This document shows, in pieces, positions 20,492 through 21,348 of a stretch of 64,000 nucleotides of DNA; position 1 is the stretch's first letter; every line of letters starts with the position of its first letter. The notes beneath the pieces are model-generated. The model was not told the DNA's origin. It ran no database searches and saw only the letters and a program-made list of their open reading frames with translations. Made by a program: the position numbers and the translations under genes. This stretch comes from Macrostomum lignano (taxonomy: Eukaryota), in assembly GCA_002269645.1 (NCBI GenBank), contig NIVC01002764.1, positions 38,755 to 102,754 of the forward strand. Reading direction: 5' to 3'.

Positions 20492-21247
20492 TGTACTAGT
20501 GCTATGCCTTTATCATAGTATACTCGAATGTTCTTTCAATGTAATAACTGTATATTCGAATCTTTCTTAGAAACTGAATCTACGCGAACGCCAAATAATA
20601 GTTTGTTTTAATGCGCGAAATAAATTGGAGAATTATTTTTTTGTTTTAATCGTATGTGGGGGAAATCACTATATATAGGAGTGGTTTCGCGACAAATATA
20701 CTCCAACTGTCTTTTACTCGTGAGCAAATAATTGCGAACAGAATAAGCAGTTCAATCTAAACCATTTCAAAGTCTTTGAGCTAAATAGCGACTTATTTAT
20801 TTGCAAAACCTGTGAAACGATTCTAAGAAATTTGCTAAGAGAAGGGAATTGGGACTAATTCTTGGAGATATACCAAGAGAGGCGCCGTGACCCTCTAGTC
20901 TCGGTGAACGCCCGATTAGGACTATACACTAATACATATACCAGTACTAGACCGCTCAGGCCATAAGCTACTAGAACGCTACCAGAAAGCAAGCCATAAG
21001 CTACCAGAAACGCTACTAAGAACGCTACTAAGAACGCTACCCAGAAATATTTAAATGAAATTCTAAGAAATAGTTAGGGAGTAAAAGCAAGTATAATCAG
21101 GATAACTGTAGTTGGCAAATCGGTGGGATTAAAATTGATAAAGTAAGAGGTGAAAGGCCTGTAACAACTTTGGTGGCAGCTCGTAGGATATTTAATAAAC
21201 ACTAATAGTTAGAAGTTTAGAAAGACAGAGCCAAAAGGCCTGTCACA
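20492..21247 (+). repeat. 5' LTR (756 bp)
   Basis: tgtactagtg...aaggcctgtcaca; no difference from the 3' LTR seen by eye; TATA-like ctatatatag near 20669; internal gctac(t/c)a(a)gaa repeats at 20960-21045. Confidence 0.97.
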
Positions 21248-21249
21248 GC

Positions 21250-21269
21250 TGGTGGCAGCGGTAAGGATT
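21250..21269 (+). promoter_or_regulatory. Primer-binding site complementary to the tRNA-Leu(AAG/TAG) 3' end
   Basis: TGGTGGCAGCGGTAAGGATT, 2 nt after the LTR; the first 13 nt equal the reverse complement of the canonical tRNA-Leu end (TGGTGGCAGCGGTGGGATT), recalled from memory. Confidence 0.85.
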
Positions 21270-21348
21270 AGAGAAACGGCGCGAACTCTTAAAACTAGAT
21301 TCAGAAGAATTCCGAAGAATAATTTGAAAAGTTTTTCATAGAGAGAAG

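What the first reader, a model, noticed from the sequence alone, without database searches (positions are those of the whole stretch)
21105..21270. Stacked 'LTR-end + tRNA-Leu PBS' units built into the LTR itself
Seen: the true LTR end aaggcctgtcaca (21235-21247) is followed by the PBS TGGTGGCAGCGGTAAGGATT. About 80 nt upstream, inside the LTR, is a second end aaggcctgtaaca (21154-21166, 12/13 identical) followed by TGGTGGCAGCTCGTAGGAT (21171-21189). About 60 nt further up is ttggcaaatCGGTGGGATT (21112-21130), whose last 10 nt match tRNA-Leu complement positions that the functional PBS does not match. The spacers between units differ. Both inner units recur in the 3' LTR (about 29034 and 29093). 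Established: a PBS normally lies outside the LTR, and 3' tRNA fragments can silence LTR elements via the PBS. Inference: U5 grew by successive capture or duplication of end+PBS, leaving a chronological array. The extras could be alternative priming or integrase-processing sites, tRF decoys, or a way for solo LTRs or 3' read-through RNA to be reverse-transcribed.
Basis: partly seen in the sequence, partly recalled or inferred. Interest (0 to 1): 0.8.

Follow-up and report, generated by a model that had tools for sequence, protein, structure and literature searches.

The report
Shuffled primer-site cassettes in flatworm LTRs
A group of jumping genes in a flatworm stacks short "repeat end plus tRNA primer site" cassettes inside its terminal repeats and shares them between families; the stacks likely grow when the DNA copy of the tRNA lands on an inner site during copying, and any benefit to the element is untested.

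Summary
The window holds a young Ty3/Gypsy element (identical 756-bp LTRs); its RT matches Macrostomum lignano proteins. Both inner motifs match host tRNA-Leu better than shuffles. Across the genome, LTRs of many related families end in arrays of up to 8 roughly 50-nt cassettes (PBS-like head, purine-rich spacer, CCT-NNN-ACA end) that vary in number and order and are shared by families with unalignable U3. One end can be terminal (with target-site duplication) in one copy and internal in another. Three elements carry extra cassettes behind the 5' LTR only, headed by a perfect 18-nt tRNA copy; sister copies have them in both LTRs. Heads decay away from the LTR end. Best reading: a two-step ratchet driven by plus-strand transfer onto inner heads in mixed particles. 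A decoy role is untested. The scan noted similar, smaller cases in three other genomes; ten paper searches found no description.

The parts
20492..21247 (+). 5' LTR, 756 bp, TG...CA, identical to 3' LTR; TSD ATAC at 20488-20491
20950..21042 (+). Conserved anti-PBS-like word (20950-20962) followed by six GCTAC-type short repeats, predicted to pair with the heads
   Evidence: pairing is a prediction only
21112..21130 (+). Unit 1 head remnant: 5'-truncated PBS-like head fused to upstream U5
21131..21166 (+). Unit 1 spacer and inner att-like end; 32 of 40 aligned positions identical to a cassette body of another family (C35)
21167..21170 (+). 4-nt linker between inner end and head 2
21171..21189 (+). 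Unit 2 head, 3 edits from the tRNA-Leu complement
21190..21247 (+). Unit 2 spacer and true LTR end; a copy of a U5 end (53 of 66 positions identical to the native U5 end of sister subfamily C303)
21250..21269 (+). Working PBS for tRNA-Leu(AAG/TAG): first 13 nt perfect, 2 edits; a hybrid between the family's usual imperfect PBS and the tRNA copy
21349..22353 (+). gag with one CCHC zinc knuckle
22305..26854 (+). pol (protease, RT, RNase H, integrase), in two overlapping frames in this copy (22305-25127 and 25046-26854)
27203..28135 (+). Extra ORF after integrase, no Pfam match
28402..28413 (+). Polypurine tract
28414..29169 (+). 3' LTR with the same inner units (heads 29034-29052 and 29093-29111, inner end 29076-29088); TSD ATAC at 29170-29173

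Best explanation
The inner motifs are members of a pool of mobile 'tRNA-Leu primer-site head plus short U5 end' cassettes stacked in the LTRs of a flatworm Gypsy lineage, and the stack likely grows in two steps during reverse transcription in particles holding two different RNAs. Step 1 (inferred): the plus-strand strong-stop DNA, which ends in an 18-nt copy of the tRNA, anneals to an inner head on the partner's minus strand, giving a provirus with normal LTRs and extra cassettes between the 5' LTR and the working PBS (this product is seen three times). Step 2 (inferred): the next round primes at the most downstream PBS and copies the cassettes into both LTRs (seen in sister copies). A new cassette is likely born when the same DNA end mis-primes in U5 itself. 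Inner heads then decay, mostly G to A, and units are lost or reordered by template switching. The array is probably a tolerated by-product whose units persist by being recycled as terminal ends.
For: Shown: arrays genome-wide, 1335 pattern hits against 233 for the reversed control (62 of the 100 listed rows are array-type by eye, 33 satellite or chance, 5 another family). Step-1 products with TSD: C754, C390 (2 of 27 distinct family insertions with both LTRs read) and C391 (found by the perfect-head search); in all three the first head outside the LTR is the perfect 18-mer and the last PBS is imperfect. Step-2 counterparts: C269 for C754; C723 and a second C269 element for C391. C754 has the same leader as C269 (0 differences in 450 nt) but a U3 close to short-array copies and at least 9 differences from C269's, so it is a two-template recombinant. 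The family copies tRNA into the PBS: 8 perfect, 18 imperfect, 1 hybrid among 27 insertions, on mixed haplotypes. Perfect heads are followed by a further unit in 13 true of 16 hits among 121 sites; terminal-type imperfect PBS in 0 of 69 (Fisher p 0.005). Edit distance rises away from the LTR end (rho 0.43; first head worse than last in 21, better in 4, tied in 6 of 31 arrays). The same end is terminal with TSD in one copy and inner in another in at least six cases. Unit 2's spacer is a U5-end copy.
Against: No cDNA intermediate was observed; both steps are read from integrated copies. C754 can also arise by ordinary homologous minus-strand switching onto a long RNA whose inner head is already perfect, so it does not prove tRNA-guided transfer. 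Arrays share units and are not independent, so the polarity statistics are inflated; order swaps (C303 against C1195) show the record is not strictly chronological. Head positions 2-3 are kept in 93-100% of 59 distinct heads while other G positions are kept in 38-74%, which may be selection for a function beyond recycling, though the search patterns favour such heads. In the distant GC-rich families the inner head stays perfect in many copies, which decay of a passenger does not predict. The 121 perfect sites mix families with different linker lengths.
Confidence: 0.7

Rival explanations
1. The array is adaptive: inner heads act as decoys or sponges for 3' tRNA fragments, or as extra tRNA loading sites, while an imperfect working PBS lowers silencing.
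For: The CCA-pairing bases of the heads are conserved; arrays persist across families from 100% to 58% RT identity; perfect inner heads persist in the GC-rich families; most working PBS are imperfect, as in mouse ERVs where this is read as escape from tRNA fragments (PMC7472051, section 4.3 read).
Against: No small-RNA data could be laid. Only 3 of 81 distinct units keep the first 11 nt perfect, and heads decay with position. Short and long forms coexist in one family, so extra units are dispensable.
Confidence: 0.15
2. Inner heads are routinely used as alternative priming and integrase sites, so one RNA yields LTRs of several lengths.
For: Every unit carries an att-like CCT-NNN-ACA end and many such ends are terminal somewhere; three elements end at an inner ACA relative to their 5' side.
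Against: 0 of 63 family LTRs end at the 21166 site. In the GC-rich family 0 of 10 LTR pairs are discordant although long forms have a perfect inner head. C754 is a recombinant, not a simple inner-primed daughter of C269.
Confidence: 0.1
3. The array is an ordinary tandem repeat made by slippage or unequal crossing-over in chromosomal DNA.
For: Exact tandem duplicates of a unit occur (C112, C1140, C4802); the same LTRs carry a 12-nt variable repeat.
Against: Neighbouring units usually differ, the two LTRs of an element carry identical arrays, units move between families whose first 400 LTR bases do not align, and junctions fall at the end of the 18-nt tRNA copy.
Confidence: 0.05

Closest known systems
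Imperfect PBS with repeated reversion to the tRNA sequence in mouse ETn, MusD and IAP (Cullen and Schorn 2020, PMC7472051; section 4.3 and passages read)
   Same: Most copies have a mismatched PBS; perfect PBS appear on mixed backgrounds, as expected from copying of the tRNA.
   Different: There is one PBS, outside the LTR. The review states that Ty1 and Ty3 do not inherit the tRNA copy; this Gypsy family appears to.
Aberrant second-strand transfer in HIV-1 proviruses (PMC12657518; passages read)
   Same: The plus-strand end carrying the tRNA copy lands at a wrong place on the minus strand.
   Different: In HIV the products are defective deletions; here they stay mobile, add LTR ends and accumulate.
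HIV-1 with two PBS: MAL-type partial PBS duplication (PMC3185550, one passage); a dual-PBS virus (Li et al. 1997) and two-PBS vectors (Voronin and Pathak 2004), both seen only as reference titles
   Same: More than one PBS-like site near the U5 end.
   Different: One extra site, downstream of the PBS or engineered, without its own att end; no arrays or exchange between families.
Multiple polypurine tracts of Sireviruses (Bousios et al. 2010, PMC2829016; passages read)
   Same: A clade-wide cluster of extra primer-like sites beside an LTR junction, role unclear.
   Different: Those are plus-strand primers outside the LTR, identical in sequence and lacking attachment sites.
Recombination between co-packaged LTR-retrotransposon RNAs (Drost and Sanchez 2019, PMC6894440; passages read)
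   Same: Mosaic progeny from two templates.
   Different: The passages read treat the second strand transfer as non-expanding and mention no growth of U5.
Second tRNA-Lys binding site of Drosophila Gypsy (PMC1635307; abstract read)
   Same: An extra tRNA site that is not needed for cDNA synthesis.
   Different: A single site at the 3' end of the RNA, not a variable array in U5.

Membership tests
Ty3/Gypsy LTR retrotransposon | pol order protease-RT-RNase H-integrase after a gag | tested here: met
Ty3/Gypsy LTR retrotransposon | TG...CA LTRs, short TSD, tRNA PBS behind the 5' LTR, PPT before the 3' LTR | tested here: met
Gmr1/Osvaldo, Mag or CsRN1 clade of M. lignano (PMC12801592) | RT phylogeny with labelled clade references | not tested
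   No labelled references were held; the paper and its five supplements give no PBS data
Canonical PBS | Lies just outside the 5' LTR and is absent from the 3' LTR | tested here: not met
   Inner heads are in both LTRs; met only by 21250-21269
Canonical PBS | Is used to prime, giving copies that end at the ACA before it | tested here: not met
   For the 21171 head: 0 of 63 LTRs; homologous ends are terminal in other subfamilies
CRISPR-like polarised acquisition array | New units are added at one end | tested here: met
   Extra units and perfect heads lie at the 3' end; decay gradient, with order swaps as exceptions
CRISPR-like polarised acquisition array | Spacers are taken from foreign sequence between invariant repeats | tested here: not met
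   Spacers are U5 ends of the same lineage and heads vary
Tf1-type self-priming elements | The transcript 5' end pairs with the PBS and serves as primer | tested here: inconclusive
   An upstream anti-PBS word is conserved and predicted to pair, but the start site is unmapped and tRNA copying argues for tRNA priming
3' tRNA-fragment target or decoy | Fragments bind the site and change element activity | not testable with these tools
   Only contigs were offered, no small-RNA reads

The most novel reading that the evidence does not exclude
A Gypsy lineage keeps a shared, selected library of att-plus-primer-site cassettes that is added to at the LTR end by tRNA-guided strand transfer, records which families were packaged together, and shields the working PBS by titrating host tRNA-fragment silencing; similar arrays noted by this scan in other genomes would make it a general, overlooked feature of LTR elements.
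Probability: 0.2. Interest if true: 0.88.

Novelty: new variant of a known kind. Interest (0 to 1): 0.7.

Why it matters
The U5-PBS junction is taught as single and fixed. Here it is a variable array whose growth intermediates are preserved in the genome, which gives a natural read-out of second-strand transfer, of tRNA-sequence inheritance in a Gypsy element, and of co-packaging between families. It also offers a ready test of whether LTR elements counter tRNA-fragment silencing, in a laboratory flatworm with small-RNA biology. Practically, such arrays will mislead LTR-end and PBS annotation.

Tried and rejected
Copies ending at 21166: none. Spacer of foreign origin: a 28-nt spacer search gave 9 hits, all in arrays. 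Match of the window heads to five other tRNA calls (Leu-CAG, a 73-nt 'Leu-TAA', Lys, Ile, Val): all worse than Leu-AAG/TAG; the host tRNA set is incomplete, as the Rfam search scored only 63 candidates. Hairpin masking of heads: weak (mean z -0.22, 6 of 81 units below -2; own-body duplex -9.1 against -8.6 for swapped). Heat-shock elements: none in four LTRs. Other organisms: 0 hits in viral contigs, 1 hit in metagenome contigs that chance may explain, no look-alike windows. Expression: no RNA holder listed on record; contigs cannot place start or poly(A) sites. The 3' LTR of C100 was not found in the stretches taken. Two parsing scripts stopped early; head positions for one search were curated from the output. 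The Voronin and Pathak paper is not held. Paper searches without a description of such arrays: (open-access text only; Repbase entries and the earlier M. lignano LTR survey were not seen).

Full report
Observation. The window holds a complete Ty3/Gypsy LTR retrotransposon at 20492-29169 with identical 756-bp LTRs and a 4-bp TSD, gag with a zinc knuckle and pol in the order protease, RT, RNase H, integrase. Its RT region is 100% identical to a protein labelled Macrostomum lignano. Host tRNA-Leu(AAG) and (TAG) genes supply the exact complement. Head 2 is 3 edits away (0 of 400 shuffles), head 1 is 5 edits away (23 of 400 as best site, 0 of 400 as second site), and the working PBS is 2 edits away. 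Contigs from four studies carry the junctions.

Variation in the family. The LTR start occurs 87 times (some are duplicate assemblies of one insertion). Most copies have the window's layout, but at least 14 insertions have other arrays on the same LTR, each closed by its own target-site repeat. C136's array plus the window's unit 2 gives C390's LTR; the window's array plus two units gives C269's. C303 and C1195 hold the same units in different order. Unit 1 of the window is a head that lost its 5' part when fused to upstream U5, since sister subfamilies continue differently from the same short word and other families carry its spacer behind a whole head. Unit 2's spacer is a copy of a U5 end. 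None of the 63 distinct LTRs that hold the 21166 end stops there.

Genome-wide picture. A head-spacer-ACA-head pattern gives 1335 hits against 233 for the reversed control; 62 of the 100 listed rows are array-type by eye. I read 20 of these regions. Arrays lie in both LTRs and in solo LTRs of families with 86-100% RT identity, and a family at 58% has its own units. The longest array read has 8 heads (C1722). Units are mostly 45-55 nt and end in CCT-NNN-ACA with a variable middle. Six of seven other LTRs do not align with the window's first 400 bases, yet unit bodies are shared at 76-82% and unit 2 at 87-95%.

Growth intermediates. C754, C390 and C391 have 3' LTRs that end, with TSD, at an ACA that on the 5' side is followed by a perfect 18-nt tRNA complement, one or two extra units, and only then the imperfect working PBS. 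C269, C723 and a second C269 element have the same extra units in both LTRs. In the window family this state is 2 of 27 insertions with both LTRs read (three flank-identical duplicates merged, two elements with an unreadable 3' LTR left out or merged). C754 takes its leader from a C269-like RNA and its U3 from a short-array RNA. The working PBS is perfect in 8, imperfect in 18 and hybrid in 1 of 27 insertions, on mixed haplotypes, so the tRNA sequence is inherited; the review PMC7472051 (section read) reports this for retroviruses and not for Ty1 and Ty3. The imperfect terminal type is never followed by another unit (0 of 69), whereas perfect heads are (16 hits among 121 sites, 13 true after dropping three flank coincidences). 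In 33 arrays with 97 inner heads, distance from the tRNA rises from 3.3 edits in the last unit to 4.6 further in; false delimiter hits in flanks and the fused head 1 were dropped and six heads were added by hand. Substitutions are G to A in 127 of 222 cases.

Mechanism. Established: plus-strand strong-stop DNA ends in a copy of the primer tRNA and transfers by annealing to the PBS complement; co-packaged RNAs recombine (PMC6894440, passages); mis-targeted second transfers occur in HIV-1 (PMC12657518, passages). Inferred: with several PBS-like heads on a partner's minus strand, the transfer can land on an inner head and carry the downstream units along; the next cycle primes at the last PBS and fixes them in both LTRs; mis-priming inside U5 creates a new unit. 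The working PBS keeps its first 11 nt, which pair with the tRNA 3' end, and mismatches in the later part that receives the plus-strand end, while many inner heads show the reverse; this would favour such mis-transfer. I put this at 0.7.

Against. No cDNA was seen. Homologous minus-strand switching can also explain C754. Shared units inflate the statistics. Conservation of the CCA-pairing bases (93-100% against 38-74% for other G positions) and the lasting perfect inner heads of the GC-rich families may point to a function. Routine inner priming is not supported: 0 of 10 LTR pairs of the GC-rich family are discordant (7 short-short, 3 long-long). A decoy role could not be tested.

Comparison and novelty. 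It works like ordinary retroviral reverse transcription with a recurrent, tolerated error; it is not a CRISPR-like array, as spacers are the lineage's own LTR ends. Nearest cases are single extra PBS sites in HIV-1 and Gypsy and the multiple PPTs of Sireviruses. The recent survey of M. lignano LTR elements has no occurrence of PBS, tRNA or tandem in its main text and no PBS entry in five supplements (PMC12801592; abstract and first part read, term searches). Ten searches found no description; subscription papers, Repbase and bioRxiv supplements were not seen. Earlier notes of this scan report similar stacks in other genomes, mostly in few copies; I did not check them. Verdict: real, a new variant of a known kind, interest 0.7.

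Noticed in passing
window 20950-21042; L113, L072, L128, L127, L124, L131: A conserved word complementary to the PBS lies 200-300 nt upstream of it in the LTRs of several families, just behind an initiator-like CAGT, and is expanded into a short variable repeat in the window family; folding predicts pairing with the heads.
   Followed up: partly
L260-L271, L274-L299 (GC-rich Gypsy families; C3260 RT 58% identical): Short and long LTR forms coexist; long forms hold a perfect inner head, while the working PBS has a 2-nt insertion in all 14 elements read. Some LTRs end in TTA instead of CA.
   Followed up: partly
L129, L130, L253-L257 (G000:C106): Five spaced copies of a BEL-type gag (DUF1759) preceded by two PBS-like sites of another type (initiator-Met-like, label recalled) and followed by an ankyrin-repeat ORF.
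   Followed up: partly
window 25046-25127: pol lies in two overlapping frames in this copy; other copies read in one frame.
   Followed up: no
window 27203-28135: Extra ORF without Pfam match; many 4.3-kb deleted copies have spread, and C303 keeps this as its only long ORF.
   Followed up: no
G000:C2404, C241, C3845: Tandem LTR-internal-LTR-internal-LTR insertions of the family.
   Followed up: no
window 22335-22353: gag ends in a GGGAAAC word overlapping the pol frame, a likely -1 frameshift site (motif recalled).
   Followed up: no
window 1-350, 4879-5530, 9340-10600, 37373-38080, 39895-40756, 51800-59500: Large tandem-repeat blocks (periods 4, 9-14, 33, 12, 36 and 24-25 nt).
   Followed up: no
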